From assembly GCF_902148845.1 (NCBI RefSeq), contig NC_043762.1:28907760-28962759 (forward strand): a stretch of DNA of 55,000 nucleotides, written 5' to 3'. The translations under genes and the position numbers were made by a program. This document shows positions 16,396 to 46,898 of the stretch, one piece after another (the stretch's first letter is position 1; the number at the start of each line of letters is the position of its first letter). Origin of the DNA: Salarias fasciatus. Lineage: Eukaryota. The notes beneath the pieces were generated by a model. It was not told the origin of the DNA, did no database searches, and saw only the letters and a list, made by a program, of their open reading frames with translations.

Positions 16396-16397
16396 TC

Positions 16398-28727: not shown

Positions 28728-28819
28728 CTGAGAGACGAAAGAAGAGACGCGTCAGGACACGGTCTCTTATCTCTGGGATGGAAAAGTTCAGAAAAGTTCT
28801 GAAACTCTGGAAGACGCAC

Positions 28820-28894
28820 CTGCTCGGCCTGGAGCCGGGCCTCCTCGGTGGGATACGCCACCATCTCCACCGTCTCCGTCTCCACCGTGTTCTC
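28820..28894 (-). CDS. APOL-A coding exon (ENTVETETVEMVAYPTEEARLQAEQ)
   Basis: Acceptor ctgtttcccag|, donor CAG|gtgcgt. 75 nt, phase 0. Confidence 0.5.
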
Positions 28895-29011
28895 CTGGGA
28901 AACAGACGCAGCACAGCGTTAACCGCCGAGCCGCTGCTATTATCATCATCATCATTCGTTTTGCTGTGTTTGTTCTTGTGCTGCATTTCAGCTCCAGCTC
29001 GTCTTCCTGAC

Positions 29012-29074
29012 CTGCGCTGGGTTCATCTCCTGCAGCTCCACCGTCTCCTCAACCGTGGGCATCTTTTCTGAACT
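29012..29074 (-). CDS. APOL-A exon containing the first in-frame ATG (SSEK-MPTVEETVELQEMNPAQ). ATG at 29062
   Basis: Acceptor cctcctcag|AGTTCAGAAAAGATG; donor CAG|gtcagg. 63 nt, phase 0. The reading frame stays open upstream of the ATG back to the acceptor. Confidence 0.5.
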
Positions 29075-29367
29075 CTGAGGAGGAAAAACATTTAAAAGAA
29101 TAAAGTCCAGACTAACAGACATTTTGTTTGAGTACAAGTTAAAGTGAAGCAGAAATAAAACATCGTCTAACAGACGATACCTGCGACGACAAGTTAAGTT
29201 TGGGCATTCTCGGCAGAGTTTTCTTGACTCGGAAAGAAACGACCTGGAAAACAAACAGGAGACATTCATGAGGAGGAGATGTGATATTAAAGCCAGACTA
29301 ACGGTTGGTTTTATGTCCTGATTCATCTTCTTCTGCTCTTCGGCGTCTCCACATGCTGCAAACTGAC

Positions 29368-29439
29368 CCGCTGTTTCTTCTTGATGGTCCGCTTGCGCCT
29401 CAGTCCTGCTCCTGTCAGGGGCGCCGTGTCCTCACCCCC
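29368..29439 (-). CDS. Array-1 microexon 41, basic (GGEDTAPLTGAGLRRKRTIKKKQR)
   Basis: Acceptor ctcctctgcag|, donor CGG|gtcagt. 72 nt, phase 0. The last array exon, about 290 bp upstream of the APOL-A ATG exon. Confidence 0.45.
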
Positions 29440-29552
29440 CTGCAGAGGAGGACAGGGACGGTCTGCTCAGACTTGTGCTGATCACAGCAAACTCAATCAC
29501 CTCGCAGTATTTTGATCTAATCACCAAACGGCACTGATCAGATCGGCCGTAC

Positions 29553-29612
29553 CTGCTGCTCCTCGTTTTTCGGCGTCCTCCTGAACATCCCGGCAAAACC
29601 ACCTTTTCTCTC
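29553..29612 (-). CDS. Array-1 microexon 40, type B (ERKGGFAGMFRRTPKNEEQQ)
   Basis: Acceptor ttccggaacag|, donor CAG|gtacgg. 60 nt. Confidence 0.5.
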
Positions 29613-30143
29613 CTGTTCCGGAAAACACACCACGCAGAACTCATTTATCAGCTGGACTGATGTGTGTCCATGTAAAGGAAATATCACCGGACTGTAAAAC
29701 TCACCTTTGTGCCTGCAGAGTCAAGGTTTTCATTACTGGTTGATAATTCGCCGTGAGCGAAAGGATCATCCTAATGAATGAATGAATGAATGAATGAATG
29801 AGTGAGTGAGTAAGTACTCATAGTGAAGCAGAAGTACAGATACTTGAGCGGAACATGATCTGTTAACAATTCAGCTTCTTTACTGAAGTGAAAGTAAGAA
29901 ATGCGGTTATTACGTAATACTGGGTTATTACAGTTTACAAAGACGCATTTCATCTGGTAGTTTACTGTCAGACACTACATTAGTCTTGGAATGAAAAAAA
30001 AATCTGTTGACCCGGCCAGACTTTGTAAAGAAACCCTACAATTGATTCCATTTCCACCTTCCAAATCGCCATGAGTGTGACTTATTCCCTGAACTCTGAA
30101 CTGGTGGCGTTGGGCTGAATTCCAGCCTCTCGGAACGTCTCAC

Positions 30144-30203
30144 CTCTCCGGCGTCGCTCAGGCTGTCCACACTGGCCGAGCGCTTCGAGTCACTCAGAGG
30201 ATC
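30144..30203 (-). CDS. Array-1 microexon 39, type A (DPLSDSKRSASVDSLSDAGE)
   Basis: Acceptor ccttcccag|, donor GAG|gtgaga. 60 nt. Confidence 0.5.
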
Positions 30204-30389
30204 CTGGGAAGGAAAATAAGTTTAAGGTGTCTCTCCTCTCTCCAACAGCACTTTCCAGACACAAACGTTTAAATGTGTGACTTCTAGAGCAGAAACGGTC
30301 AGTAAAGCCTATTTGCTTTCCAGCTTCCAGGAAGCAGTGAAGGGATCGACTGCACAGCGTTCTGACACAAACTAACTTCATCTGCTCAC

Positions 30390-30461
30390 CTGCACGGCCG
30401 CCGACCGTTTGGCCGGTTTGGGAGACTTTCTGAAAATCCCTGCCAGTCCTCCAGACTTCTC
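30390..30461 (-). CDS. Array-1 microexon 38, type B (EKSGGLAGIFRKSPKPAKRSAAVQ)
   Basis: Acceptor gtgtttcag|, donor CAG|gtgagc. 72 nt. Confidence 0.5.
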
Positions 30462-30540
30462 CTGAAACACACACAGACCATAATGAGGCGTCGGAGGACG
30501 CAGAGGACGGAGGCTGGAGGTTGATCCTCGACGCCGGCAC

Positions 30541-30606
30541 CTTGGCTGCGGATCCCTCGGAGAGGTTTTCACTGCTGGCAGACAGCTTCTTCTCCTCGCC
30601 TGATTC
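30541..30606 (-). CDS. Array-1 microexon 37, type A (ESGEEKKLSASSENLSEGSAAK)
   Basis: Acceptor cttcctgctcag|, donor AAG|gtgccg. 66 nt. Confidence 0.5.
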
Positions 30607-30692
30607 CTGAGCAGGAAGAAAACACTTTGAGACAAATGTCACTAAAATAAACAGGTTCTGTTGTGAAGTTCATGGAAAAGTCACGGCCGTAC

Positions 30693-30746
30693 CTCGTCTG
30701 CTGGTTTCTGGGCTTTCTTGAACATCCCACTGAAGATGTTTTTCTC
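30693..30746 (-). CDS. Array-1 microexon 36, type B (EKNIFSGMFKKAQKPADE)
   Basis: Acceptor tttgattccag|, donor GAG|gtacgg. 54 nt. Confidence 0.5.
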
Positions 30747-30817
30747 CTGGAATCAAACAGCGAGCGCAGATCAGAAACCAGCTTCAGAGGCAGAGACGGC
30801 GGTCCAGCTGGATTTAC

Positions 30818-30883
30818 CTTGGTGCTGCTGCTTTCAGTCAAGTTCTCAGTGCTTGCTGAAAGCTCCTTCTGAGAGTCCCTGTC
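30818..30883 (-). CDS. Array-1 microexon 35, type A (DRDSQKELSASTENLTESSSTK)
   Basis: Acceptor gtttgttttgcag|, donor AAG|gtaaat. 66 nt. Confidence 0.5.
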
Positions 30884-31098
30884 CTGCAAAACAAACTCAA
30901 CTGTATGAAACTGAACTTATCTCCATCTGTTGATGATATGAACCACAGGGCAGCTGAGAGGAAAGCTTTTTGGCCCAGAGGTCTTCTGGGAACAAACACT
31001 TTCTCAGCGATGAAACTAAACCTGTGTTGTTTGGTGCTGAATGAATAAAGCTGAGCTGAACTGAAATCCAGTGAGTCCAGACCAGGGACCGGTCTCAC

Positions 31099-31164
31099 CT
31101 CCGCCTCGTCTCCTGACGCTCTGGTGGTTTTCTTGCGGCGTCCACCGAACAGGCCGCCGTTCTC
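31099..31164 (-). CDS. Array-1 microexon 34, type B (ENGGLFGGRRKKTTRASGDEAE)
   Basis: Acceptor ttctgtcctgcag|, donor GAG|gtgaga. 66 nt. Confidence 0.5.
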
Positions 31165-31440
31165 CTGCAGGACAGAAAAGAGCTGAATGAGGGAGTGTCT
31201 CAACACCATGACATTCAAATGATAAAGAAGGGACTGTTTTATAAGTTCATCTGTTACCATCATCTGGCTGTTCTCTCATTTAAAGTCAATTCAAATAACT
31301 GGATCAGTCTGAAGTTGGTCTAATCAATCTTTATTTCGTGTCACACGGGTTTAAAACTCTAATTTTAACAGTTAAACTACAAAGTACAGCTGAAATGCAC
31401 ACACACACTCTCACACTCACACACACACTCTTCCACTGAC

Positions 31441-31509
31441 CTCGTCAAACAGGTCAAACTCAATGCTGGCTGATCTCTTGAACATTTCCGCCAGCCCCCC
31501 TTTTTTCTC
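31441..31509 (-). CDS. Array-1 microexon 33, type B variant (EKKRGLAEMFKRSASIEFDLFDE)
   Basis: Acceptor tctgttttag|, donor GAG|gtcagt. 69 nt. Confidence 0.45.
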
Positions 31510-31778
31510 CTAAAACAGACAAACACACAAACAAACACAAACACACACTTGTGTCATGATGAGAAGCAAATCACACCCGTTTCCTTTGACAGAAGCAAAA
31601 AGGTTAAAGGTCACTGGGCCGTTTGTCACATCTACGAAGCTCTGACTGATTGACCCTCCGATTAGCGACCCGACACAACGCGAGTCGCTGCTCTAACCCT
31701 CCAGACTGATGTCTACTCCAGTTTCAGTTCGCTCAGGCTGCGGTCGGGGTGGCGGCGGCGGCGGCGGCGGCGCCGTAC

Positions 31779-31850
31779 CTTGGGGACGGTCGTGTCGGTC
31801 AGATTCTCAGAGCTGCCTGATAGCCGGTCGTCAGAGTTGAAATCCGAGTC
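31779..31850 (-). CDS. Array-1 microexon 32, type A (DSDFNSDDRLSGSSENLTDTTVPK)
   Basis: Acceptor ttgagtttag|, donor AAG|gtacgg. 72 nt. A (GGC)n repeat lies in the downstream intron. Confidence 0.45.
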
Positions 31851-31930
31851 CTAAACTCAAAAACAGAAAACGGTGAATAAAAGGAGACAAAAGATGTTTG
31901 AAACTGGACGCTCTTCAAACAGCCGCCGTA

Positions 31931-31984
31931 CCGCCTCTGCTGGTTTCTGCGGCCGCTTGAACATGTTGGTGAAGATGTTTTTCT
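31931..31984 (-). CDS. Array-1 microexon 31, type B (EKNIFTNMFKRPQKPAEA)
   Basis: Acceptor tttatcttttcag|, donor GCG|gtacgg. 54 nt. Confidence 0.5.
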
Positions 31985-32066
31985 CCTGAAAAGATAAACT
32001 GAAGTCAGTCCGTGATCCTTCCTCCTGTAATACGGAAACGTTAAGTGTTTGGTAAGCTACACTCAC

Positions 32067-32132
32067 TTTGCCGCCGGTATTCTCAGACAGGTCTTCACTG
32101 CTGGCTGACAGCTCCTTCCGACTCTCTCCGTC
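32067..32132 (-). CDS. Array-1 microexon 30, type A (DGESRKELSASSEDLSENTGGK)
   Basis: Acceptor ttttggtttcag|, donor AAA|gtgagt. 66 nt. Confidence 0.55.
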
Positions 32133-32202
32133 CTGAAACCAAAAGAAAGGTTGAGTTTGTGTGAAAGCTCTGAAGCTGTTGGGCACATGTCGGCTGGTTT
32201 AC

Positions 32203-32277
32203 CGGCGAGCCGCTCCTCTCTCCGGACGCTCTGGGAGTCTTCTTAAGGAGTCCACTGAACAGCCCTCCACCTTTCTC
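32203..32277 (-). CDS. Array-1 microexon 29, type B (EKGGGLFSGLLKKTPRASGERSGSP)
   Basis: Acceptor gtcttggtcag|, donor CCG|gtaaac. 75 nt. Confidence 0.5.
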
Positions 32278-32363
32278 CTGACCAAGACAGAAGAGGCCTT
32301 CAGGAGGGATCCAGACCAGGAACAGTGAGATCCTGGACCAGATGTCAGGTTTAACTTACTGAC

Positions 32364-32423
32364 CTGTTTGTTCTCAGACAAATTCTCGGTGCTGGCCGAG
32401 AGCTCAGAGTCAAGAGGCATGTC
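32364..32423 (-). CDS. Array-1 microexon 28, type A (DMPLDSELSASTENLSENKQ)
   Basis: Acceptor ttccttctcttccag|, donor CAG|gtcagt. 60 nt. Confidence 0.55.
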
Positions 32424-32522
32424 CTGGAAGAGAAGGAAAGAAAGAAGAGTTCAAAAGGTCTCAAAAGTTAAATAAAGCAGACAGTGACTGACACACAAAC
32501 TGGAAAAGATTCCCACGGATAC

Positions 32523-32594
32523 CTCCTCGGACTGAGCAGCTTCTGCGGGTTTATGAGGCTTCTTGAATATTCCGCTGAATAATCCTCCTTTTTC
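32523..32594 (-). CDS. Array-1 microexon 27, type B (EKGGLFSGIFKKPHKPAEAAQSEE)
   Basis: Acceptor ctctgtttcag|, donor GAG|gtatcc. 72 nt. Confidence 0.55.
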
Positions 32595-32792
32595 CTGAAA
32601 CAGAGCAGCCGGTGTTCATTTCCATGACAAGGCTGAGATCGTTCAGTAATGTCTGACAGAGCTGGGTGTTGCAGAAAGAGGATTTTAACTTGTTAAGAGA
32701 GTTATGGAATCAAAGTCAGACAAACACTGTCTCCCTGCTATCAGGAGTTAACGCTGTTTACCTGAAGGTCAGGAGTTTACACATCGTCATAC

Positions 32793-32846
32793 CTTGTTGT
32801 CGGTCGGGCCTTCAGCGCCGCCGTCATCCTCCTGAGACTTTCTCTC
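32793..32846 (-). CDS. Array-1 microexon 26, acidic (ERKSQEDDGGAEGPTDNK)
   Basis: Acceptor tctttttccag|, donor AAG|gtatga. 54 nt. Confidence 0.45.
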
Positions 32847-33155
32847 CTGGAAAAAGAGGACGACAGTCACAGTCTTGATTCCATTTTCTGGAAATAATCC
32901 CGATGAAATGTTCGGGTGATGAACCAGAGAGCTTCCTGCATCCGTCCTCCTGAGACGAAGGATGCTTTATCTTTTTTATTCCCTCTTGGGTGAAAACAAC
33001 AACTCATCCACAATATACAACACCACACACTGTACAGCAGCCGGCAACACCAGGAGGACGATGGTTAAAGCAACGCTGATGTTAAAGATATATTTCAATT
33101 AATAGAGATTAAAGATGAACTATTAAAATGCGTTTTTCCTGAGAGCCACACTGAC

Positions 33156-33221
33156 CTTTGTGTTTGGAGCATCAGTCAGACTGTCGGTACTGCCCGACAC
33201 GTCTTTAGCAGAAGAACTCTC
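33156..33221 (-). CDS. Array-1 microexon 25, type A (ESSSAKDVSGSTDSLTDAPNTK)
   Basis: Acceptor tttttgtttcag|, donor AAG|gtcagt. 66 nt. Confidence 0.5.
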
Positions 33222-33397
33222 CTGAAACAAAAACACAAACTGTCTGTTATCAAGGCGGGTGATGAAGACAGGTGTGGCCCAACAGAAGATGTTTTCTCAA
33301 AATGAATGTTGTTGTAATGTCCAGAACCAACAGAAGCCCTGGGGTTTCCTGCAGAGGGGCTCATAAATAACCTATAAAGAACATAAATAATCTTCAC

Positions 33398-33454
33398 CTC
33401 TGCCGCTGTTTTCGGAGTCTTTCGGAGGAGTCCACTGAACAACCTGCCTTTCTC
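33398..33454 (-). CDS. Array-1 microexon 24, type B (EKGRLFSGLLRKTPKTAAE)
   Basis: Acceptor ttttccttcctctgcag|, donor GAG|gtgaag. 57 nt. Confidence 0.55.
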
Positions 33455-33608
33455 CTGCAGAGGAAGGAAAAAAAAAAAGCAAACTCATTGTGGTTGGCGG
33501 TAGAATGACCAGGAAGTTCTTCCTCTGCAGCAGCTTGAAACACGAGTGCTGCTGTGGCGAGCGACTCATGGAGGAGGAAGCGTCCAGCGGTCGTGATGAG
33601 AGTCGAAC

Positions 33609-33665
33609 CTTGTTCTCCAGGCTGTCGGTGCTGGTGGAGAGCTCGCCGTGTAGCCGCTCCACGCC
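33609..33665 (-). CDS. Array-1 microexon 23, type A (GVERLHGELSTSTDSLENK)
   Basis: Acceptor gttgttttcag|, donor AAG|gttcga. 57 nt. A (CAA)n repeat lies in the upstream intron. Confidence 0.5.
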
Positions 33666-33887
33666 CTGAAAACAACAACAACAACAACAACAACATGGTG
33701 CCATGTGTGACATTTTTTATCAACAACATTTATTTTAAAGCAGATGAAGAAGGAACAAGAGAATCACACTAATATGGCATCAGCTGTGAGCTACAGCGAG
33801 AAAACAAGGCTGACAGATCATTAACGCAAATAAAAGTCAAATAAAGGAGAAACTTATGAAGGCTTAACAAGTGACAGTGAGATCTGC

Positions 33888-33941
33888 AGTGCATCACCTC
33901 CTCGGATGGTTTCGGTTTCTTAAACATTCCACTGAAAACGC
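33888..33941 (-). CDS. Array-1 microexon 22, type B (EKGGVFSGMFKKPKPSEE)
   Basis: Acceptor gcgtatcag|, donor GAG|gtgatg. 54 nt. Confidence 0.5.
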
Positions 33942-34034
33942 CACCTTTCTCCTGATACGCAAAGAAAAAAAGCATTTTGTCAGATGTGCCGTTTCCTGTA
34001 AAGCTTCAGAAGCTTGATTTGATAGTGTTCTTAC

Positions 34035-34097
34035 TTTGGTGCTGCTCTCAGAGAGATTCTCGCTGCTGGCCGACTTCGCAGCCTGCAGCGACTCATC
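34035..34097 (-). CDS. Array-1 microexon 21, type A (DESLQAAKSASSENLSESSTK)
   Basis: Acceptor cttgtgtttcag|, donor AAA|gtaaga. 63 nt. Confidence 0.55.
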
Positions 34098-34744
34098 CTG
34101 AAACACAAGCGAGTAACCCGATCAACACTCACATTGAGCTGGATTTATAAGCAGAAATCTATCATCGAAGGCAGGGAAGCCTGATTTCTGCCAATTACAT
34201 GTTTAAAAACAAGAAAATTGCTGAAAAAGTGGGGAAAAAAAATGAGTTTTAGAGGTTAAAAAAATGTAATTTAAATCATGAAATAAGTCAAGCAGTGTTT
34301 CAAAGTTACAGCTTATACCAAAGAGACACGTTGTTCATGTAATGTTGCTATAAATACTTTGACGTGGGAAGTAAATAAAGCTACGGCGAGCTGTGAGAGA
34401 CAAAACAAGAAGTGCAGCCAACAGGCAGCGGCACTTCAGAAAGTTTACACTTCTGCAGGAGTGTGTGTCACTGGAACGAATCACACCCGGCTTCCAGAGG
34501 ACAGACATGCAGACCCATAATGCAGTTTCTTTCATTAAACTAGAAAAAAGTAGAGTCTGTTCAGCTGCATGTGTTTTAAATGAGGTTTATTTTCATTATG
34601 GAGCCGATTGAAAACAGTCTGATTTAAGGGAAAGACAGACAAACAGGTTTTTCCAGGAAACCAGTCAGTTCACTTCCTCAGTGGCCTTCAGGGAGTCTGT
34701 TTGCTCAGCTCACCTCCATCAGCGCCAGAATCTAAACTCCTCAC

Positions 34745-34813
34745 CTGTGCAGGCGTCGCCTCTCCGGGAGTCTTGGGTGGTTTCCGTCGCATTCCGCCGA
34801 AAAAGCCTTTTTC
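34745..34813 (-). CDS. Array-1 microexon 20, type B (EKGFFGGMRRKPPKTPGEATPAQ)
   Basis: Acceptor cgtctgtctccag|, donor CAG|gtgagg. 69 nt. Confidence 0.5.
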
Positions 34814-34899
34814 CTGGAGACAGACGGACAGATGATACTGTGTTGATCGTGCTTATTAAATCCACGATGCAGCATTTTCCACCAGATTCACATTCAGAC

Positions 34900-34959
34900 C
34901 TTCGGCGGATTTTCAGTCAGACGGTCTTTGCTGCCGGAGAGCTCATCACACTGCTCGTC
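34900..34959 (-). CDS. Array-1 microexon 19, type A variant (DEQCDELSGSKDRLTENPPK)
   Basis: Acceptor ggtttgttttcag|, donor AAG|gtctga (weak). 60 nt. Confidence 0.4.
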
Positions 34960-35035
34960 CTGAAAACAAACCAGCCACATTTATTATCAGGCGACACACA
35001 GACTCACACATTTTATCTGATTCTCCAACAATCAC

Positions 35036-35098
35036 CTGATCAGCCTCAGCAGCTTCTGCTGGTTTCTTCTTGAACAGCCCACCGAATTTGCCTTTTTC
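35036..35098 (-). CDS. Array-1 microexon 18, type B (EKGKFGGLFKKKPAEAAEADQ)
   Basis: Acceptor tctgtgtttcag|, donor CAG|gtgatt. 63 nt. Confidence 0.5.
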
Positions 35099-35177
35099 CT
35101 GAAACACAGAGCAGGAAGCAGGTGTGATTTCCGCCGGTCGCAGGTCGGAGGTACTCGGTGTGTGTTATAATCTTCAC

Positions 35178-35240
35178 CTTGCTGCTTTCAGACAGACTGT
35201 CACTGCTGGCAGACAGTTCAGTCGCGACACTCAGATTATC
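35178..35240 (-). CDS. Array-1 microexon 17, type A (DNLSVATELSASSDSLSESSK)
   Basis: Acceptor tgcatttcag|, donor AAG|gtgaag. 63 nt. Confidence 0.5.
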
Positions 35241-35344
35241 CTGAAATGCAACAACAAGCAGAGTTCAGTCAGTGATAAAAGCTTTGTATGGATGGAGCAG
35301 TGAAGGATCCCGTTCTCCACAGCCGACGGCTCACCTGAGCAGGA

Positions 35345-35416
35345 ATGTCCTCTGCCGCCGGCTTGTTCGATTTTTTAAGCAGGCCGGAGAAGAAACCTCC
35401 TTTTTCCTGTCAAGAA
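35345..35416 (-). CDS. Array-1 microexon 16, type B (EKGGFFSGLLKKSNKPAAEDIPAQ)
   Basis: Acceptor tatttcttgacag|, donor CAG|gtgagc. 72 nt. Confidence 0.5.
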
Positions 35417-35583
35417 ATAAACAAGACGTAAACAGTTATGAACTGTAACAAGACTGTCGGTGGTGTTTCTGCAGAGCAGTGATCGGGACACTGAGTGAGG
35501 CATAACAATAATAATACACTTATTTATATTTTTCATTATTAAAACTGAGAGATCAGAGTTTCTGAACTGTGAACTTGACTCAC

Positions 35584-35646
35584 GTGCGTTTGATCAGTTT
35601 TCTCGTCTTCGTCTGAATCCTCGCTCTCGCCGTCTGCTTTGCTGAT
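35584..35646 (-). CDS. Array-1 microexon 15, acidic (ISKADGESEDSDEDEKTDQTH)
   Basis: Acceptor tgtgtgtgagcag|, donor CAC|gtgagt. 63 nt. Confidence 0.45.
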
Positions 35647-35741
35647 CTGCTCACACACAGTTACGAGAGTGAATGAAAAAGCGAGCCGACATTAAAAATA
35701 CGAGGTCAGGCTGAATGAAGAGGCGGGAGCGTTGAGGTTAC

Positions 35742-35813
35742 CGACAGCGCCGAAGACAAGGATTTATCTTTGGGTGCTTTGCGAAACATTCCAGCGAACA
35801 GACCTCCTTTGTC
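35742..35813 (-). CDS. Array-1 microexon 14, type B (DKGGLFAGMFRKAPKDKSLSSALS)
   Basis: Acceptor tgttttcttttatcag|, donor TCG|gtaacc. 72 nt. Confidence 0.5.
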
Positions 35814-35884
35814 CTGATAAAAGAAAACAACTTAAATATTTCTGTATATTTTAAAAGCTTTAACTTGCGTTTGTCTGTGAGTAC

Positions 35885-35989
35885 CGGTTTGGCCTCTGCG
35901 TTTCTCTCCGGCTTGTGTCGGTCTGCAGACTGCTCCTTCCCTGAGTCGTCTTCTTCTTCACGGGCTTCAGGACTCGGATCTCTGCTCGC
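35885..35989 (-). CDS. Array-1 microexon 13, type D (ASRDPSPEAREEEDDSGKEQSADRHKPERNAEAKP)
   Basis: Acceptor tgtttcctcag|, donor CCG|gtactc. 105 nt. Paralogous to microexon 11. Confidence 0.5.
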
Positions 35990-36151
35990 CTGAGGAAACA
36001 TCGCTCTGATTTCACTCAAGTCTCTGACATAAACCGAAATAAAACAGCTGCACGTCTGAATCATGTGTTGTTGCTGTGCGGACGCCGGTGAGGAATCAGA
36101 GCTTCTGAATTCATGTTAATCATGTGACTCGTGGTGTTTGGAGAGCGTTAC

Positions 36152-36220
36152 CCGAGGAGACTTTCCATCTGCTGCCTTGTGAGGCTTCTTCAGGATGCCA
36201 GAGAGGAAACCTCCTTTTTC
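36152..36220 (-). CDS. Array-1 microexon 12, type B (EKGGFLSGILKKPHKAADGKSPR)
   Basis: Acceptor catttttcttctcag|, donor CGG|gtaacg. 69 nt. Confidence 0.5.
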
Positions 36221-36449
36221 CTGAGAAGAAAAATGTTTCTAGTTATATAAACACATTTTCACAGCACAGCGTCTTGTTTTGGCCCGGACTGCCGCTGGAC
36301 TCATTCACTGAAAAACGTGTTGTTTTTCTGAAAGGCTTAGAATCTGCGATGCTCCGATACATCAACACAAAGAGAAAAGAAAAAACTACAGAAAGATTTT
36401 GTTTGGAAAAGCAGAAGCAGAACTTGGAGGCACTATTGTTGAATTGTAC

Positions 36450-36554
36450 CTGTTTGGGTTCTGCATTGTTTTCAGGCAGGTTCTTCTCTGCAGATTGTTC
36501 CTTTTCTGGACCTGCTTCCTCCGTCCGCGGGTCAGGACTCGGGTCTCTGCCGGG
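36450..36554 (-). CDS. Array-1 microexon 11, type D (PGRDPSPDPRTEEAGPEKEQSAEKNLPENNAEPKQ)
   Basis: Acceptor tttcgtctctcag|, donor CAG|gtacaa. 105 nt. Paralogous to microexon 13. Confidence 0.5.
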
Positions 36555-36885
36555 CTGAGAGACGAAACAACGGGATCATTCTGTGATTCAGGATAACTAT
36601 CAAACCTATCAGAGCGGAGGAGAAACTCATGTTGAGCCCACAGGTTAGAATTTCCCCGCCTTCATCTCCATCAGACCAAACATCAGATCTGAACCGGGCA
36701 AATGACATCTCTCACCGCGATTTGGAAACAAAGCGAGAGAAAAATTCTTAAAGCAAGATAAAATAGAAAAACACACTGGATTAACTGAGCGTGTCCCGTT
36801 GCCACCACCGAGGAAACCACAGCCGAGACAAGAGATGAGGCGCAGCAGCAGCCAGAGAGACACCAGCTCCCACAATGCTTCATAC

Positions 36886-36936
36886 CTTCGGGGCGGACTT
36901 GAAGTGTAACCCCTTCATCACTCCCTTCAGACCGCC
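36886..36936 (-). CDS. Array-1 microexon 10, basic (GGLKGVMKGLHFKSAPK)
   Basis: Acceptor tgtgatcggcag| (weak polypyrimidine tract), donor AAG|gtatga. 51 nt. Confidence 0.35.
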
Positions 36937-37116
36937 CTGCCGATCACAGTATCATCTCACAGTCTGCTTGACAACAGAGGCACACACACCTGAACACACA
37001 CATTCACACAGGGCTGGGCAGACGGGCTTCAGCGACCTTTAACCTGGATTCTGATGTCTCGTATCCCATGAGAATCTATGAGGAACAATGTGGTGTCCAG
37101 CGTTTTGGTGCCTGAT

Positions 37117-37154
<38 letters not shown>

Positions 37155-37174
37155 CCAGTCGAACCCACACATAC

Positions 37175-37249
37175 CGGTTTGCTGCCGGCAGCCTGTTTGA
37201 CTTGGACCTGGTCTGGACTCCCCTCGTCGGCGTTCGGACTCAGGTAGTT
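37175..37249 (-). CDS. Array-1 microexon 9 (NYLSPNADEGSPDQVQVKQAAGSKP)
   Basis: Acceptor gtcctctgcag|, donor CCG|gtatgt. 75 nt. A (CA)n repeat lies just downstream in the intron. Confidence 0.4.
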
Positions 37250-37974
37250 CTGCAGAGGACAAACAGCAGCTGTTGACCCTCAGAGTTCGGCAGAAAGCCT
37301 CAAACTCAGCGAGAGTCAGTGATTCCTCTACGTCTCAGCTCAGGAGATCTTCATTTACTCTCCAAGTTACCGAGACGACTGAGTCAGGAACGGCAGCTTC
37401 AACCTGCTGACACACTCCTACTGCATGGCTTTGTGCATGATCGTTCACACCCACACACACACACACACACACACAAACTCATCTGAAACCAGTTCAGCAG
37501 AGACAACAACAGATCTTCTCTGTATTTAAACATCGTTTCCACACAGAGAGACGTCCTGGTGTTCCGTCTTCTTCTCATTTCAGGAAACGCCCGTCTGGAC
37601 TTCTGGATGGAGAAACTCATCGTTTCACTACTTTGATGCTTCCTCTGAACGTTCATTTTTAAAGTAGAAGTCTGAAATTAGCATCAGACCTTCTGAAATC
37701 CTTTTACACTCCTAATGAACGGTGGTTATTGTTCAGGAAGATGGACATCAAACTAAATTTGCATGAAACAAATGACGCTCAGCTCAGAATCCAAAAGCAG
37801 AGCTGAAAACTGACTCGGTCATACAGAGAGTTTCGTCCAGTCTATTCAAGGCCCCGTTTACACGACAACATCACAAGTGGAAACGCATCAGACCTTTCGT
37901 TTGACAGCAGAAATACTGGAAGCGTCTGAGAGCCTTTCTCAGGCTGTGGAACTTTCAGGTTGTGCTTTTCTTAC

Positions 37975-38040
37975 TGTGAACGTAGGAACTTTCCCTTTTT
38001 GGCTCCGCTGAAACATCCCAGCCACTCCTCGCTGATTACT
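37975..38040 (-). CDS. Array-1 microexon 8, type B variant (SNQRGVAGMFQRSQKGKVPTFT)
   Basis: Acceptor gtgtgatattgcag|, donor ACA|gtaaga. 66 nt. Confidence 0.45.
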
Positions 38041-38133
38041 CTGCAATATCACACCAGAAAACAAAGCACGGCGTTGTCTGTAATCCAGAAAGACGAGGTC
38101 AGAACTGGGGGCTGAAGGCTGAAGGAGGAATAC

Positions 38134-38181
38134 CGATTTGAGGTCTGCTTCGTCTCGGGGATCCTCTGCTTGAGCCGATTT
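38134..38181 (-). CDS. Array-1 microexon 7, acidic (KSAQAEDPRDEADLKS)
   Basis: Acceptor tctctcttctctctcag|, donor TCG|gtattc. 48 nt. Confidence 0.45.
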
Positions 38182-38235
38182 CTGAGAGAGAAGAGAGAGA
38201 AACTGAGCAACTGGTGAAGAGAAGCTGTTTTCTAA

Positions 38236-38240
<5 letters not shown>

Positions 38241-38283
<43 letters not shown>
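38241..38283 (+). repeat. (TG)n microsatellite in the array-1 intron
   Basis: gtgtgtgt run. Confidence 0.95.
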
Positions 38284-38285
<2 letters not shown>

Positions 38286-38345
38286 CTGTGTGCCCTCGAC
38301 CTCGGCCCTCCTGAGCTGCCTGGAGACAGTGGTTGAGCTCATTTC
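38286..38345 (-). CDS. Array-1 microexon 6 (EMSSTTVSRQLRRAEVEGTQ)
   Basis: Acceptor gtgttttgtgcag|, donor CAG|gtacac. 60 nt. A (TG)n repeat lies in the downstream intron. Confidence 0.4.
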
Positions 38346-38518
38346 CTGCACAAAACACACAAAGGAACCAAAAAGAAAAGAAACATCAAGCGGCGCTCTC
38401 ACGTTCAGCTCTAAAATCCATATGAATCTGATTAATGACGATTTTTAAAACAATAAAAGAAAAGCATGTGTTGGATCTCACGTATATCTAAATAGAGACC
38501 GTCTTGGGGGGCGTCTAC

Positions 38519-38581
38519 CTTTTCGGTGGGCCTGGGAGGAATCACTGGAGTTGCAGGCAGCTTCACGTTTCCATTTGCTTG
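38519..38581 (-). CDS. Array-1 microexon 5, Pro-rich (QANGNVKLPATPVIPPRPTEK)
   Basis: Acceptor attttgtag|, donor AAG|gtagac. 63 nt. Confidence 0.4.
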
Positions 38582-38852
38582 CTACAAAATAATTCAGAAT
38601 CAAGGTTAGCATGACTAACCTAATAGGTCGTACTGTCATTCACAAAAAACACTTTTAGCTTTACATTCAACATTATTTTTCAATAGATGTTCCTCAAAAC
38701 ACCAGAACCCCTCTGTAACTGACAGTTCTGACACCTTCAGACAGTTTACTGGAACTTCTCACACGAAAAGCTTGAACTCAGAATCCACTGTAACCGTTTG
38801 TTCATTAAAGGAAACCGTCAGAAACAGACAGAAATAAAGGATTCAGTGACAC

Positions 38853-38906
38853 CTCATCGAAGACGGCGGCCAGTTGTTTCACTCTGTACTGTGTGTGAAC
38901 CAGCTC
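38853..38906 (-). CDS. Array-1 microexon 4 (ELVHTQYRVKQLAAVFDE)
   Basis: Acceptor gtgttttctgtgcag|, donor GAG|gtgtca. 54 nt. Confidence 0.4.
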
Positions 38907-39199
38907 CTGCACAGAAAACACACAAGAAGAGCTGACATGTTATTTTTCTCCAGTAAAACCCGTTTATAACGGCGCTGGCACCGTCTCCTTTTGGAACAAC
39001 ACCGAACGGACGCGTCACAGAAAACTGCCTGAATCCCTGTAAACTAAAAAAAAACTAAACTCTGATCAAATCAACAGGTTTGGTGCAGCGTTGTGTTGTA
39101 GTGGTGAGACGATTGAGAAGCTCATAAACAGGAGGTCTCTGCTGAATCTCTTATGGCCAGGCTGCTGTCGGCACTCAGGCTCGTTTGCGGTGGACTCAC

Positions 39200-39268
39200 G
39201 GCGTCTGTCGGCCGCGGCGGCGGCGCTGGAGCTGGTTTCTCAGGTCTCTCCGCCTCGTATCGTCCAAT
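39200..39268 (-). CDS. Array-1 microexon 3, Pro-rich (IGRYEAERPEKPAPAPPPRPTDA)
   Basis: Acceptor ctgtgtttacag|, donor GCC|gtgagt. 69 nt. Confidence 0.4.
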
Positions 39269-39353
39269 CTGTAAACACAGTTCCGTCATCTCTCCAACAT
39301 CCTGAAGCCAGGGGTTGAAACCGACCGGTCGACCTCAGGACTGATACTCTACC

Positions 39354-39380
39354 TCTGGAGGCTTCGGCGGCGCCGTCCTC
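39354..39380 (-). CDS. Array-1 microexon 2, 27 nt (RTAPPKPPE)
   Basis: Acceptor ctcctctctcctcgtcacag|, donor GAG|gtagag. 27 nt. Confidence 0.35.
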
Positions 39381-39677
39381 TGTGACGAGGAGAGAGGAGA
39401 AAACACGGCGTGAGAACGGCACGGCGGGTTCTCCATCCGATCATACTCGGTTCATCAGAATCCAAATGAAGAGTAATGGCAGTGAGAGCTCCACAGAAAC
39501 ATCCGATCAGTCTGAACACGTTGAAATGTTTGCTTTGATTTCCAGGATGTGAAAATCAATGAAACAGGATGTGAGTCCTCGGTTGTGTGTTTTCAGGTTT
39601 TCCAGCGGTGAGATGGAACCATCACACACTGCACATGCAGCGTCAGATCAGTGCATGCACGAAATGTGGCAGTTTTA

Positions 39678-39678
<1 letters not shown>

Positions 39679-39748
<70 letters not shown>
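39679..39748 (+). repeat. (TG)n microsatellite, about 35 units
   Basis: gtgtgt run. Confidence 0.95.
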
Positions 39749-39755
<7 letters not shown>

Positions 39756-39763
39756 ATTCTCAC

Positions 39764-39817
39764 CGGCCTGGGTTTGGGCTTCTTCTTGGCCTCAGGTTTC
39801 ACCATGCAGGCCTCCAT
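39764..39817 (-). CDS. Array-1 first coding exon with a Kozak-context ATG (MEACMVKPEAKKKPKPRP)
   Basis: gcaggATGG at 39817. Frame open to donor CCG|gtgaga. Stop codons in the other two frames. A (TG)35 repeat lies in the intron immediately downstream. Confidence 0.4.
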
Positions 39818-46896: not shown

Positions 46897-46898
46897 AC

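What the first reader, a model, noticed from the sequence alone, without database searches (positions are those of the whole stretch)
29368..39817. About 10.4-kb array of at least 41 symmetric phase-0 microexons alternating acidic phosphoserine-cluster and basic FSGMFKK peptides, directly upstream of an APOL gene
On the minus strand there is a long series of very short exons, 27-105 nt and mostly 54-72 nt. Every length is a multiple of 3. Each has a polypyrimidine-AG acceptor and a GT(A/G)AG-like donor. Two peptide types alternate. Type A is (D/E)xxxxxLSASSENLSExxxxK, which is rich in CK2/Fam20C-like S-x-E phospho-acceptor motifs. Type B is EKGG(L/V/F)FSGMFKKP(K/H)KPxxE, a basic amphipathic patch reminiscent of membrane- or calmodulin-binding effector domains. 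Further 5' there are additional exon types: two 105-nt xxRDPSPExxEE...KEQSAxxxxPExNAExKx exons alternating with type-B exons (a local exon-pair duplication), then Pro-rich exons, then an ATG exon at 39817 (MEACMVKPEAKKKPKPRP) in good Kozak context. I cannot match this architecture to any protein family I know. It behaves like a giant intrinsically disordered modular protein, of at least about 880 aa from the array alone. It could expand or contract by unequal crossing-over, because every exon is symmetric.
Basis: seen in the sequence. Interest (0 to 1): 0.9.

Follow-up and report, generated by a model that had tools for sequence, protein, structure and literature searches.

The report
Short-exon array inside a fish ApoL gene
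The run of tiny exons is real, but it is not a separate gene: it encodes the long, floppy N-terminal half of a fish-specific apolipoprotein-L-domain protein that is predicted in many fish genomes and that I could not find described in the literature I searched.

Summary
On the minus strand, 39817..29368 holds 42 short exons of 27-105 nt. All lengths are multiples of 3 and all introns are AG/GT. Acidic Ser-rich 'A' peptides alternate with basic 'B' peptides of the GGLFSGMFKK type.

The interpretation needs one major correction. The array is not upstream of an APOL gene; it is part of one. Three more phase-0 exons and four larger exons continue the same frame into a Pfam ApoL domain and a low-complexity tail. 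Together they give a 49-exon, 1661-aa model (39817..26414).

Orthologues of 1100-1740 aa, array plus ApoL domain, are predicted across teleosts. NCBI calls them 'apold1a', 'si:rp71-1g18.13', or gives misnomers such as 'titin-like'. Exon order, lengths and phases are shared with a pomfret and with the eel. dN/dS is 0.26. Annotated isoforms differ by whole units.

A profile of the A+B unit finds only 92 clusters among 1.84 billion representatives. Every named one I checked is a teleost except one weak nematode hit, and all long ones but that hit carry ApoL. AlphaFold gives no structure for the array. A paralogous gene with its own array lies upstream in the window.

What the array does remains inference: probably a multivalent, splice-tunable disordered arm on a membrane-anchored ApoL protein.

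The parts
39764..39817 (-). Exon 1: ATG exon, MEACMVKPEAKKKPKPRP, 54 nt
   Evidence: N-terminal consensus MExCxxxPExKKK in orthologue alignments. BLASTN match to Pampus DNA.
39353..39379 (-). Exon 2: RTAPPKPPE, 27 nt, phase 0
   Evidence: The 2/3 junction is supported by 30 homologues. The 1/2 junction is not supported.
39200..39268 (-). Exon 3: Pro-rich, 69 nt, phase 0
   Evidence: Pairs with Pampus exon 2 of identical length.
38853..38906 (-). Exon 4: ELVHTQYRVKQLAAVFDE, 54 nt
   Evidence: The 3/4 junction is supported by 43 homologues.
38519..38581 (-). Exon 5: Pro-rich, 63 nt
38286..38345 (-). Exon 6: 60 nt
   Evidence: Pairs with Pampus exon 4 of the same length.
38134..38181 (-). Exon 7: 48 nt
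37975..38040 (-). Exon 8: degenerate B-like (GVAGMFQRSQKGK), 66 nt
37175..37249 (-). Exon 9: 75 nt
   Evidence: The 8/9 and 9/10 junctions are supported by 32 and 34 homologues.
36886..36936 (-). Exon 10: GGLKGVMKGLHFKSAPK, 51 nt
36450..36554 (-). Exon 11: first 105-nt exon (…RDPSPD…EKEQSAE…AEPKQ)
   Evidence: 28/35 residues identical to Pampus exon 7, which is also 105 nt.
36152..36220 (-). Exon 12: B-type, EKGGFLSGILKKPHK…, 69 nt
35885..35989 (-). Exon 13: second 105-nt exon, an old duplicate of exon 11 (66% DNA identity)
35742..35813 (-). Exon 14: B-type, 72 nt
35584..35646 (-). Exon 15: acidic (net charge -7), 63 nt, with a tandem acceptor 3 nt upstream
35335..35406 (-). Exon 16: B-type, 72 nt
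35178..35240 (-). Exon 17: A-type, …ELSASSDSLSESSK, 63 nt
35036..35098 (-). Exon 18: B-type, 63 nt
34900..34959 (-). Exon 19: A-type (degenerate), 60 nt
34745..34813 (-). Exon 20: B-type, 69 nt
34035..34097 (-). Exon 21: A-type, 63 nt
   Evidence: The 21/22 junction is supported by 30 homologues.
33898..33951 (-). Exon 22: B-type, EKGGVFSGMFKKPKPSEE, 54 nt
33609..33665 (-). Exon 23: A-type, 57 nt
33398..33454 (-). Exon 24: B-type, 57 nt
33156..33221 (-). Exon 25: A-type, 66 nt
32793..32846 (-). Exon 26: acidic, without the A core motif, 54 nt
32523..32594 (-). Exon 27: B-type, 72 nt
32364..32423 (-). Exon 28: A-type, 60 nt
32203..32277 (-). Exon 29: B-type, 75 nt
32067..32132 (-). Exon 30: A-type, 66 nt
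31932..31985 (-). Exon 31: B-type (EKNIFTNMFKR…), 54 nt
31779..31850 (-). Exon 32: A-type, 72 nt
31441..31509 (-). Exon 33: B-type variant with the conserved tail KRSASI..(D/F)LFDE, 69 nt
   Evidence: Consensus.
31099..31164 (-). Exon 34: B-type, 66 nt
30818..30883 (-). Exon 35: A-type, 66 nt
30693..30746 (-). Exon 36: B-type, 54 nt
30541..30606 (-). Exon 37: A-type, 66 nt
30390..30461 (-). Exon 38: B-type, 72 nt
   Evidence: 19/24 identical to Pampus.
30144..30203 (-). Exon 39: A-type, 60 nt
29705..29770 (-). Exon 40: A-type, 66 nt
29553..29612 (-). Exon 41: B-type, 60 nt
29368..29439 (-).
   Evidence: The 42/43 junction is supported by 97 homologues.
29181..29243 (-). Exon 43: VVSFRVKKTLPRMPKLNLSSQ, 63 nt, phase 0
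   Evidence: 18/21 identical to Pampus.
29012..29074 (-). Exon 44: 63 nt, phase 0
28820..28894 (-). Exon 45: 75 nt; last of the 45 consecutive phase-0 exons
28688..28727 (-). Exon 46: ENNELMEWWKSVK, 40 nt; the frame leaves phase 0 here
   Evidence: The same 40-nt exon is present in Pampus and eel.
28554..28605 (-). Exon 47: 52 nt, phase 1
28065..28479 (-). Exon 48: 415 nt, first half of the ApoL domain, including the hydrophobic stretch at aa 1058-1100
   Evidence: Pfam PF05461, E = 2.3e-32. Exon is 415 nt in Pampus and eel too. Hydropathy.
26414..27982 (-). Exon 49: second half of the ApoL domain, an acidic coiled stretch, a low-complexity tail ((PEPR)x12, Gly run, Glu run), the conserved C-terminus LLEDGLYI and the stop codon
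45250..54385 (-). Upstream paralogous ApoL gene with its own alternating B/A short-exon array (54385..~52230). It belongs to the same gene family but is not part of this transcript; its 5' end is probably cut by the window end.
   Evidence: tblastn with P0095 and P0088, sequence reading, motif scan, BLASTP of the two ApoL domains at 44% identity.

Best explanation
The array is the 5' two-thirds of one protein-coding gene on the minus strand (39817..26414; 49 exons; 1661 aa in my model). This is the teleost long ApoL-domain gene that NCBI labels 'apold1a' and Ensembl/UniProt label 'si:rp71-1g18.13'.

Shown:
- Forty-five consecutive short phase-0 exons encode about 970 residues that are predicted to be disordered.
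- Acidic Ser-rich modules (core E-L-S-A-S-x-D/E-S/N-L-S-E) alternate with basic-hydrophobic modules (core E-K-G-G-h-F-S-G-M-F-K-K-x-P-K-P).
- They run in frame into a highly conserved helical ApoL domain with two hydrophobic stretches, followed by a low-complexity tail.
- The modules are held by purifying selection across teleosts.
- Each module is its own symmetric exon, and annotated isoforms in other fish drop whole modules.

Inferred:
- The ApoL domain anchors the protein in an intracellular membrane.
- The N-terminal chain stays in the cytosol, because there is no signal peptide.
- The chain acts as a multivalent arm with alternating charge. The B modules would be the contact elements, for a membrane surface or for a partner protein. 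The A modules would be acidic, probably phosphorylatable spacers that could mask the B modules electrostatically.
- Cassette splicing would set the number of modules without breaking the frame.
For: Gene model:
- One open frame runs through 49 exons, all with AG/GT introns.
- ApoL domain PF05461 scores E = 2.3e-32, 113 bits against a cutoff of 25.9.

Family:
- 170 homologues were found; of the 120 listed, nearly all are 1000-1740 aa and carry PF05461 together with the array.
- The A+B unit occurs 4-18 times in every one of them. The consensus comes from 1272 units.

Exon structure:
- The Pampus annotated model maps to 41 exons, 37 of them short and phase 0.
- 36 window exons pair in order with Pampus exons; dN/dS is 0.26; identity by codon position is 0.81/0.81/0.60.
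- The eel orthologue has 34 phase-0 short exons followed by the same 40/52/415-nt exons.
- Exons are 70% covered by cross-species BLASTN hits and introns 8%.
- 44 of 48 junctions are bridged without a gap by at least one homologous annotated protein.

Splicing:
- Isoforms in O. latipes, L. crocea and Simochromis differ by exact blocks of 23-25, 45 and 179 aa.
- A 4159-nt Logan contig carries the paralogue type as one intronless 992-aa ORF, with B and A exons abutting.
- A 904-nt Logan contig carries 248 aa of an apold1a-like array with no room for introns.

Disorder and topology:
- AlphaFold pLDDT is about 30-40 with no secondary structure over 374 array and linker residues; helices start at the ApoL part.
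- The array has no hydrophobic segment; there are two in the ApoL domain.
- Exon charges alternate.

Restriction:
- The unit profile finds only 92 clusters among 1.84 billion representatives. All long ones but one weak spurious hit have ApoL. Every named one checked except that hit is a teleost.
Against: - There is no transcript evidence from this species.
- Four junctions (1/2, 6/7, 12/13, 31/32) lack support from homologue alignments.
- The functional part is untested. The helical hydrophobic moment of the B core is modest (about 0.30), so an amphipathic membrane helix is not clearly indicated.
- CK2-type sites are not enriched.
- No known domain or motif family matches the modules.
- Shorter ApoL-only isoforms from an internal promoter cannot be excluded. 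For example, Betta splendens isoforms range from 706 to 1180 aa.
Confidence: 0.8

Rival explanations
1. The array is a separate gene encoding a free-standing disordered protein, and it merely lies upstream of an independent APOL gene.
For: A few database entries hold the array without an ApoL domain: P0020 (866 aa), P0042 (571 aa), P0058 (729 aa), P0062 (838 aa). Zebrafish apol1 has been studied as a short protein encoded by a 2.6-kb locus (PMC4492502).
Against: - The frame is continuous from exon 42 into the ApoL exons, with canonical splice sites and no intervening stop.
- Nearly all of the 120 listed homologues carry both parts.
- Junctions 42/43 to 48/49 are each bridged by 35-107 homologous proteins.
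- The same exon chain is found in eel and Pampus.
- The array-only entries look like partial models.
Confidence: 0.05
2. The segments are a decayed tandem repeat or pseudo-exons in an intron or UTR, not coding sequence.
For: There is no RNA evidence from this species. A crude splice/ORF filter is only about two-fold enriched over the opposite strand.
Against: - dN/dS is 0.26 and third codon positions are far less conserved.
- Conservation is confined to the exons.
- There is no DNA-level tandem repeat; units are only about 66-78% identical at DNA level and their introns are unrelated.
- Phase and length are conserved back to the eel.
- Spliced contigs exist in other fish.
Confidence: 0.02
3. 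The array is an extracellular or lumenal acidic phosphoprotein region: a Fam20C substrate like the SCPP or starmaker proteins, working in mineral or calcium binding.
For: - S-x-[DE] is enriched, 33 against 19.8 in shuffles.
- NCBI names one paralogue 'starmaker-like' and another 'dentin sialophosphoprotein'.
- SCPP genes also have many short symmetric exons (my own knowledge).
Against: - There is no signal peptide and no hydrophobic N-terminus.
- S-x-E itself is only marginally enriched, 19 against 13.1.
- Half of the modules are basic and hydrophobic, not acidic.
- The array is fused to an ApoL domain, whose non-secreted family members sit on the cytosolic face of membranes (PMC8557400).
- Those NCBI names are automatic labels driven by composition.
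Confidence: 0.05
4. The gene identity is as above, but the B modules are repeated docking motifs for one specific folded partner (for example a cytoskeletal or trafficking protein) rather than membrane-binding patches, and the A modules are recognition sites of their own.
For: - Conservation is very strong and position-specific in both cores. In B: F 78%, G 85%, F 74%, K/R 97%, K 85%. In A: L 84%, S 89%, S 95%, D/E 94%, L 91%. That is more typical of short linear binding motifs than of generic charge patches.
- The amphipathic moment is modest.
Against: No match to any Pfam family, including WH2-type motifs. No partner is known. Nothing here discriminates this from membrane binding.
Confidence: 0.3

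Closest known systems
Teleost predicted proteins labelled 'uncharacterized protein apold1a' or 'si:rp71-1g18.13' (e.g. Gasterosteus, Alosa, Sardina, Osmerus, O. mykiss; also mislabelled 'titin-like', 'futsch', 'myb-like protein X', 'claspin-like')
   Same: - The whole architecture is shared: N-terminal consensus MExCxxxPExKKK, Pro-rich exons, alternating A/B modules, the basic linker RRKRTIKKK-VVSFRVK, the ELMEWW motif, the ApoL domain, the low-complexity tail and the C-terminus DGLYI.
- The exon structure is the same in Pampus and eel.
- The neighbours are the same in Pampus.
   Different: The best identity over the array is only 53-58%, so this species' protein is not in the database. The number of units varies from 4 to 18. 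The window has an extra, old copy of the 105-nt/B exon pair relative to the Pampus model.
Teleost 'apolipoprotein L1' / 'Apolipoprotein L, 1' predicted proteins (about 550-1200 aa), the tandem paralogue, also present at 54385..45250 in this window
   Same: An N-terminal array of the same A and B modules, each on its own short exon, followed by an ApoL domain. The two genes sit next to each other in eel, moray, shad, Pampus and this window.
   Different: - The ApoL domains are only about 44% identical.
- There are fewer units, a different middle region (NPF(M/R)P(R)VK repeats) and a different C-terminus (…REYV).
- In the window the whole ApoL domain of the paralogue appears to lie in one exon.
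Amniote APOLD1 (VERGE) and human APOL1-6
   Same: The Pfam ApoL domain with its Gly/Ala/Val-rich hydrophobic helices.
   Different: - Amniote APOLD1 proteins are mostly 226-352 aa (one 465-aa model) and have no A/B array.
- The window's ApoL domain is only 30-32% identical to them over 123-141 aligned residues, less than the window's paralogue (35-38%).
- Orthology to APOLD1 is therefore a label, not a demonstrated fact.
- APOL1-6 were not compared here.
Titin PEVK region, collagen triple-helix exons and tropoelastin (arrays of short in-frame exons that each encode one module of an extended or disordered chain)
   Same: Works alike at the gene level (my own knowledge of these genes): many consecutive short symmetric exons, one peptide module per exon, and module number varied by cassette splicing without a frameshift.
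   Different: There is no sequence relationship. Here two unlike module types alternate with opposite charge, and the array is attached to a membrane-insertion domain rather than to a sarcomeric or extracellular protein.
MARCKS effector domain and other basic-aromatic membrane patches
   Same: The B core (F-S-G-M-F-K-K) mixes Phe and Lys as the MARCKS segment does (…FSFKKSFKLSGFSFKK…, from my own knowledge). The nearby acidic, phosphorylatable residues suggest an electrostatic switch.
   Different: A B module has about 2 aromatic and 3-5 basic residues, not about 5 and 12. No myristoylation signal is present (the N-terminus is MEAC, not MG). There is no homology, and lipid binding is untested.
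Schistosome micro-exon genes (MEGs)
   Same: Most of the coding sequence is built from many short symmetric exons, which allows combinatorial skipping (my own knowledge).
   Different: MEG exons are 6-36 nt, the products are small secreted proteins with a signal peptide, and the taxon is unrelated. Here exons are 27-105 nt and there is no signal peptide.

Membership tests
ApoL family (Pfam PF05461) | Significant match to the ApoL domain profile above the curated cutoff | tested here: met
   E = 2.3e-32, 113.1 bits against a cutoff of 25.9, profile positions 47-297 of 298, in exons 48-49.
ApoL family (Pfam PF05461) | The array and the ApoL domain belong to one reading frame and one gene | tested here: met
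   One continuous 1661-aa frame through 49 AG/GT exons. Junctions 42/43 to 48/49 are each bridged by 35-107 homologous proteins.
Teleost 'apold1a / si:rp71-1g18.13' orthologue group | Full-length similarity (array plus linker plus ApoL plus tail) to proteins carrying that label | tested here: met
   Hits with 97-100% query coverage to Sardina, Alosa, Larimichthys, Solea and other proteins of 1600-1740 aa, E down to 1e-275. Shared consensus along the whole length.
Teleost 'apold1a / si:rp71-1g18.13' orthologue group | Conserved exon structure (number, order, length and phase of exons) | tested here: met
   36 exons pair in order with Pampus and 13 have identical length. Eel has 34 phase-0 short exons followed by 40/52/415-nt exons in phases 0/1/2, the same lengths and phases as window exons 46-48.
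Teleost 'apold1a / si:rp71-1g18.13' orthologue group | Conserved neighbours | tested here: met
   There is an upstream ApoL paralogue and a downstream RRM gene (hnRNP C-like) both in Pampus L001 and in the window.
Orthologue of amniote APOLD1 | Closest relationship of the ApoL domain to APOLD1 rather than to other ApoL genes, over the full domain | tested here: inconclusive
   Only 30-32% identity over 123-141 residues to human-like, emu and alligator APOLD1. The window's other paralogue is closer (35-38%), and the two paralogues are closest to each other (44%). No tree with APOL1-6 or non-teleost fish was built.
Orthologue of amniote APOLD1 | Comparable protein architecture | tested here: not met
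   Amniote APOLD1 proteins are mostly 226-352 aa (one 465-aa model) with no array. The unit profile finds no amniote protein.
Secreted Fam20C-substrate phosphoproteins (SCPP / starmaker-like) | N-terminal signal peptide | tested here: not met
   The maximum 8-residue Kyte-Doolittle mean in the first 30 aa is 0.41, and the maximum 19-residue mean over aa 1-970 is 0.18. This is a simple hydropathy test, not a dedicated predictor.
Secreted Fam20C-substrate phosphoproteins (SCPP / starmaker-like) | Strong enrichment of S-x-E | tested here: inconclusive
   19 observed against 13.1 ± 3.2 in shuffles (93 of 2000 shuffles reach it). S-x-[DE] is 33 against 19.8 (2 of 2000).
CK2 substrate clusters | Enrichment of S/T-x-x-D/E | tested here: not met
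   24 observed against 28.9 ± 4.4 in shuffles.
MARCKS-type effector domain | About 25-residue segment with about 12 basic and about 5 aromatic residues, plus N-myristoylation of the protein | tested here: not met
   B modules have 3-5 basic and about 2 aromatic residues. The N-terminus is MEAC…, with no Gly at position 2. Lipid binding itself cannot be tested here.
Known protein domain or repeat families in general (Pfam-A) | Any profile match over the array | tested here: not met
   No families at E ≤ 0.01 for the 903-aa array, nor for array-only homologues P0020, P0042 and P0062.
Micro-exon genes in the strict sense | Exons of 30 nt or less (or 6-36 nt in schistosome MEGs) | tested here: not met
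   Lengths are 27-105 nt with a median of 63; only one exon is 30 nt or shorter.

The most novel reading that the evidence does not exclude
Early teleosts built a new kind of ApoL protein. Two unlike 20-residue modules, one acidic and Ser-rich and one basic and hydrophobic, were placed on separate symmetric exons and amplified into a 30-45-exon array. This gives a membrane-anchored ApoL domain a roughly 900-residue arm of alternating charge. Its number of binding sites would be set by cassette splicing and its stickiness by phosphorylation: in effect a splice-programmable tether or condensate scaffold on an organelle membrane. If so, the fish 'apol1' and 'apold1a' genes are not simple stand-ins for human APOL1 or APOLD1.
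Probability: 0.3. Interest if true: 0.6.

Novelty: new variant of a known kind. Interest (0 to 1): 0.45.

Why it matters
ApoL proteins matter for human kidney disease, trypanosome resistance and endothelial biology, and zebrafish apol1 has been used as a model of human APOL1. That work treated the fish protein as a short ApoL-only product (PMC4492502, PMC4854397).

The results here show that across teleosts both tandem ApoL genes are predicted to encode proteins mostly two to six times longer than amniote APOLD1. The extra part is a conserved array of two alternating peptide modules. It has no counterpart in amniote APOLD1 and no match in Pfam. I also found no mention of it in the literature I could search.

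The locus is also a clean vertebrate example of one module per symmetric exon, with 45 phase-0 exons in a row. That makes it a good system for studying how exon-level modularity, cassette splicing and unit duplication shape a disordered region.

It does not settle a long-standing question, and the gene models already sit in public databases, so the interest is moderate.

Tried and rejected
- Tandem Repeats Finder over 28-41 kb found only microsatellites. The array is not a DNA-level tandem repeat. Units are 66-78% identical at DNA level and their introns are unrelated.
- Pfam gave no hit on the array or on array-only homologues. PF26369, precomputed for P0042, was not reproduced.
- Exact look-ups for P0002 and P0017 were not on record. 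P0008, P0066, P0135, P0109 and P0149 were found.
- My spliced mapper failed on P0135/L003, the Alosa paralogue. I dropped it.
- A conserved 'intronic' block at 37395-37481 proved to be a shared (TG)n microsatellite.
- Literature searches for apold1a, rp71-1g18.13 and the motif strings returned nothing. The general ApoL/teleost searches returned nothing relevant.
- A search seeded with the catfish protein, meant to reach zebrafish, listed no Danio protein. Whether zebrafish keeps the array is undetermined.
- Ideas considered and not supported by the sequence: WH2 actin-binding motifs (no Pfam hit; the spacing is wrong), PP2A-B56 LxxIxE, the PP1 RVxF motif, canonical LIR, FFAT, and AP-2 DPF (present once in the window exon but not conserved in Pampus). 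These were checked by eye against the consensus only.
- An amphipathic-helix reading of the B core is weak (muH about 0.30).
- ORF lists for 1-9 kb and 15-26.4 kb showed nothing clearly coding.

Full report
**1. What is in the sequence**

I read the minus strand from 40200 down to 25000. I listed every AG…GT segment with an open frame and then curated a chain of exons.

Every length is a multiple of three. Every acceptor is a pyrimidine tract followed by AG, and every donor starts with GT.

The chain does not stop at 29368. Three more phase-0 exons follow (29243..29181, 29074..29012, 28894..28820), then exons of 40, 52, 415 and 1569 nt. The whole gives one open frame of 1661 codons that ends at a TAG at 26414.

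The last two exons carry a Pfam ApoL domain (PF05461, E = 2.3e-32, 113 bits against a curated cutoff of 25.9). So the 'APOL gene directly downstream' and the array are one gene.

The 45 short exons have a median length of 63 nt and sum to 2910 nt. The introns between them have a median length of about 120 nt.

**2. Is it more than chance?**

- A six-frame scan for the two peptide cores gave 17 B-type and 12 A-type hits. All were on the minus strand and none on the plus strand.
- Net charge alternates from exon to exon. The lag-1 product is -162 against a shuffle mean of +9.6, and 0 of 5000 shuffles reach it.
- A crude splice-plus-ORF filter alone is only about two-fold enriched: 40 candidates on the minus strand, 21 on the plus strand and 5-21 in shuffles.

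I therefore rest the case on the motifs, the chained frame and cross-species evidence. Tandem Repeats Finder sees no long-period repeat. At DNA level the units are only 66-78% identical and their introns are unrelated. The array is old, not a recent tandem duplication.

**3. Relatives**

The first 1000 residues of the model found 170 proteins. Of the 120 listed, nearly all are teleost proteins of 1000-1740 aa that carry PF05461 as well.

Their names are 'uncharacterized protein apold1a', 'si:rp71-1g18.13', 'uncharacterized protein LOC…', or composition-driven misnomers ('titin-like', 'futsch', 'myb-like protein X', 'claspin-like').

The best identity is only 53-58%, so this species' protein is not in the database.

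A weaker group of about 1000-1100 aa, named 'apolipoprotein L1', is a paralogue (see section 8).

**4. Exon structure is conserved**

*Pampus punctatissimus.* I fetched the genomic locus of the orthologue (L001) and mapped its annotated protein exactly. It has 41 exons, of which 37 are short and phase 0.
- Thirty-six window exons pair in order with Pampus exons.
- dN/dS over the paired codons is 0.26 (dN 0.22, dS 0.84).
- Identity by codon position is 0.81, 0.81 and 0.60.
- BLASTN hits between the two loci cover 70% of exon bases and 8% of intron bases.

*European eel.* This is a member of the earliest-branching teleost group. Its orthologue (L002) has 34 phase-0 short exons that alternate A and B. 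They are followed by exons of 40, 52 and 415 nt in phases 0, 1 and 2, the same lengths and phases as window exons 46-48.

*Junction support.* For 44 of the 48 junctions in my model, at least one homologous annotated protein aligns across the junction without a gap and with at least 6 of 12 identities. Junctions 1/2, 6/7, 12/13 and 31/32 lack such support.

**5. Evidence for splicing and cassette use**

There is no RNA from this species. The evidence comes from other fish.
- Annotated isoforms of the same gene are identical except for exact blocks of 23, 24, 24, 25, 45 and 179 residues, that is, whole units (O. latipes, L. crocea, Simochromis).
- A 4159-nt Logan contig (SRR27393481) carries a 992-aa ORF of the paralogue type with no introns. 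Its nucleotides 824-890 and 887-937 match window 54378-54312 and 54219-54169. A B exon and the next A exon therefore abut in that molecule although about 90 nt separate them in the genome.
- A 904-nt Logan contig carries 248 residues of an apold1a-like array, from B-like units to the …VSYRVKRTL linker. That leaves no room for introns.

**6. The repeat unit and its distribution**

An HMM of ten window A+B units found 4-18 units in each of the 120 homologues. From 1272 units the consensus is E-L-S-A/G-S-x-D/E-S/N-L-S-E/D-N-x-x-K | E-K-G-G-h-F-S-G-M/I-F-K-K-S/T-P-K-P.

Conservation at the best-kept positions:

| Module | Residue and frequency |
|---|---|
| A | S 95%, D/E 94%, L 91%, S 89%, L 84% |
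| B | K/R 97%, G 85%, K 85%, F 78%, F 74% |

The B modules are better conserved than the A modules between species.

A profile of 60 diverse units was scored against 1.84 billion representative proteins. It found only 92 with E ≤ 0.001. Every long one carries an ApoL domain, except one weak hit (E = 1e-4) in a nematode that I regard as spurious.

Apart from that nematode hit and one unnamed Logan contig, every one of the 20 clusters whose names I looked up is a teleost: eels, moray, bonefish, halosaur, shad, catfish, salmonids, Polymixia, opah, grenadier, seahorse, pufferfish, goby, Betta and a poeciliid.

Amniote APOLD1 proteins are mostly 226-352 aa (one 465-aa model) and none appears among the unit hits. 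Within the limits of the library, the array is a teleost feature.

**7. Turnover of units**

Among percomorphs the units are one-to-one and colinear. Eight of ten window units have their best match in Pampus or Larimichthys rather than elsewhere in the window's own array.

At greater depth (sardine, trout, eel) positional orthology fades. Some lineages show near-identical neighbouring units: mean unit identity is 0.80 in the catfish Neoarius, and the maximum is 0.86 in sardine and 0.93 in the Morone paralogue.

In the window's lineage the array is stable. The one local duplication, of the 105-nt exon and a B exon, is old (66% DNA identity).

**8. Surroundings**

Upstream on the same strand, from about 54385 to 45250, lies a second ApoL gene with its own array: ESGGVFSGMFKKSPK… | EDLSAPSELSGSADNLNAK | ESGGVFSGLFKKPPK… and so on. 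It belongs to the 'apolipoprotein L1' group. Its ApoL domain is 44% identical to that of the gene under study.

The same pair of neighbouring genes is seen in Pampus. Consecutive locus tags suggest the same in eel and moray.

Downstream, on the plus strand at about 11.1-14.9 kb, is an RRM gene whose first exon reads like hnRNP C. Pampus also has an RRM gene at this position.

**9. Relation to APOLD1**

The label 'apold1a' suggests orthology to APOLD1. I fetched real APOLD1 sequences, using the human sequence recalled from memory as bait; it was 100% identical to a database entry over 89% of its length. I then compared domains.

The window's ApoL domain is 30-32% identical to human-like, emu and alligator APOLD1 over only 123-141 residues. 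The paralogue is 35-38% identical. I did not build a tree with APOL1-6 or with non-teleost fish, so orthology is unresolved. The architecture clearly differs.

**10. Physical character and likely mechanism**

The 970-residue array consists of 34% charged residues, 11% Ser, 8% Gly and 8% Pro, and its mean hydropathy is -1.16. It has no hydrophobic segment and no signal-peptide-like N-terminus. The only hydrophobic stretches of the protein are at aa 1058-1100 and 1203-1227, inside the ApoL domain.

AlphaFold2 was run on the orthologous Pampus fragment with a 55-sequence alignment. It gives pLDDT of about 30-40 and no secondary structure for all 374 array and linker residues. Helices start where the ApoL part starts. 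Low confidence is not proof of disorder, but it agrees with the composition.

On phosphorylation motifs: S-x-[DE] is enriched (33 against 19.8), S-x-E only marginally (19 against 13.1), and S/T-x-x-D/E is not (24 against 28.9). The helical hydrophobic moment of the B core is modest (about 0.30).

My best reading is as follows. The ApoL domain anchors the protein in a membrane, as in other non-secreted ApoL proteins that sit on the cytosolic face of the ER (PMC8557400). The N-terminal chain is a cytosolic, multivalent arm of alternating charge.
- The strongly conserved B cores are the contact elements, for a membrane surface or for a partner.
- The A cores are acidic segments, probably phosphorylated, that could pair with and mask the B cores.
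- Because every module is a symmetric exon, cassette splicing changes the number of modules without breaking the frame.

The gene identity, exon architecture, conservation and predicted disorder are shown. The topology, the binding role of B, the phospho-switch role of A and the functional use of splicing are inferred.

**11. Literature**

- Searches for apold1a, rp71-1g18.13 and the motif strings returned no paper.
- A study of ApoL family evolution covers mammals and APOLD1 back to amniotes and does not describe fish arrays (PMC8557400).
- I could not establish whether zebrafish itself keeps the array. A search seeded with a catfish protein listed characins (626-690 aa), a knifefish (599 aa) and catfishes (547-1011 aa), but no Danio protein.

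**12. Verdict**

It is wrong on one structural point, because the array is not a separate gene but the N-terminal part of the ApoL gene itself.

The gene belongs to a teleost-wide family that already exists as uncharacterised predicted proteins. I found no description of its architecture in the literature I could search: 45 phase-0 exons in a row, two alternating modules, fused to an ApoL domain, and present in two tandem paralogues. I rate it a new variant of a known kind, of moderate interest.

Noticed in passing
window 45250-54385, minus strand: A second ApoL gene, of the 'apolipoprotein L1' teleost group, has its own alternating B/A short-exon array. The expected first exon (MERYD…LDLECDGGG) was not found, so its 5' end is probably cut off by the window end. 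Its ApoL domain is 44% identical to that of the gene studied.
   Followed up: partly
window 53671-53733, minus strand: One B-type exon of the upstream paralogue (ESGGMFSGMFKKGHKHRTQSQ) is followed by GC instead of GT (cag|gcatgt). This is either a GC-AG intron or a different boundary.
   Followed up: no
window ~11100-14900, plus strand: An RRM gene whose first coding exon reads [58 protein letters not shown]…, which looks like hnRNP C. Pampus also has an RRM gene in the same position next to the orthologous ApoL gene.
   Followed up: partly
e.g. window 34097/34091, 33951/33948, 33454/33451, 32277/32274, 31985/31982, 30746/30743, 28894/28891 (minus strand): About eleven exons begin with GAG right after a CAG acceptor (CAG|GAG), which gives tandem NAGNAG acceptors. 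Use of the second AG would drop the leading Glu without changing the frame.
   Followed up: no
window 26414-27300, minus strand: The C-terminal tail of the gene is low-complexity: a 12-nt repeat x12.5 encoding (PEPR)n at 27039-27188, a Gly run at 26881-26961 and a Glu run at 26510-26573. The last residues, LLEDGLYI, are conserved across orthologues, whereas the paralogue group ends in …REYV.
   Followed up: partly
window 15000-26400: The gap between the end of the ApoL gene and the hnRNP C-like gene is about 11.4 kb here but only about 2.4-2.9 kb in Pampus. The extra DNA includes a GC-rich stretch at 21-22 kb with a (GPA)n-like repeat. No clear gene was seen in ORF lists.
   Followed up: partly
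window 31441-31509, minus strand (exon 33): One B-type exon has a distinct, conserved tail: KRSASI(E/D)..LFDE, with orthologue consensus EKKGGLAGIFKRSxSxDNLxDE. It combines a basophilic-kinase-like R-S-x-S site with an acidic-hydrophobic motif and breaks the A/B alternation (it is followed directly by another B exon).
   Followed up: no
window 37395-37481 and introns at 39680-39748, 38238-38283, 37119-37152: (TG)n/(CA)n microsatellites lie in several introns. The one at 37395-37481 is shared with Pampus and produced a spurious 'conserved intronic block'.
   Followed up: yes
L002 (Anguilla anguilla) and P0142 (Neoarius graeffei): In eel and especially in catfish, neighbouring units are much more alike (up to 0.74 and 0.93 identity) than in the window. 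This indicates lineage-specific unit duplication or homogenisation.
   Followed up: partly
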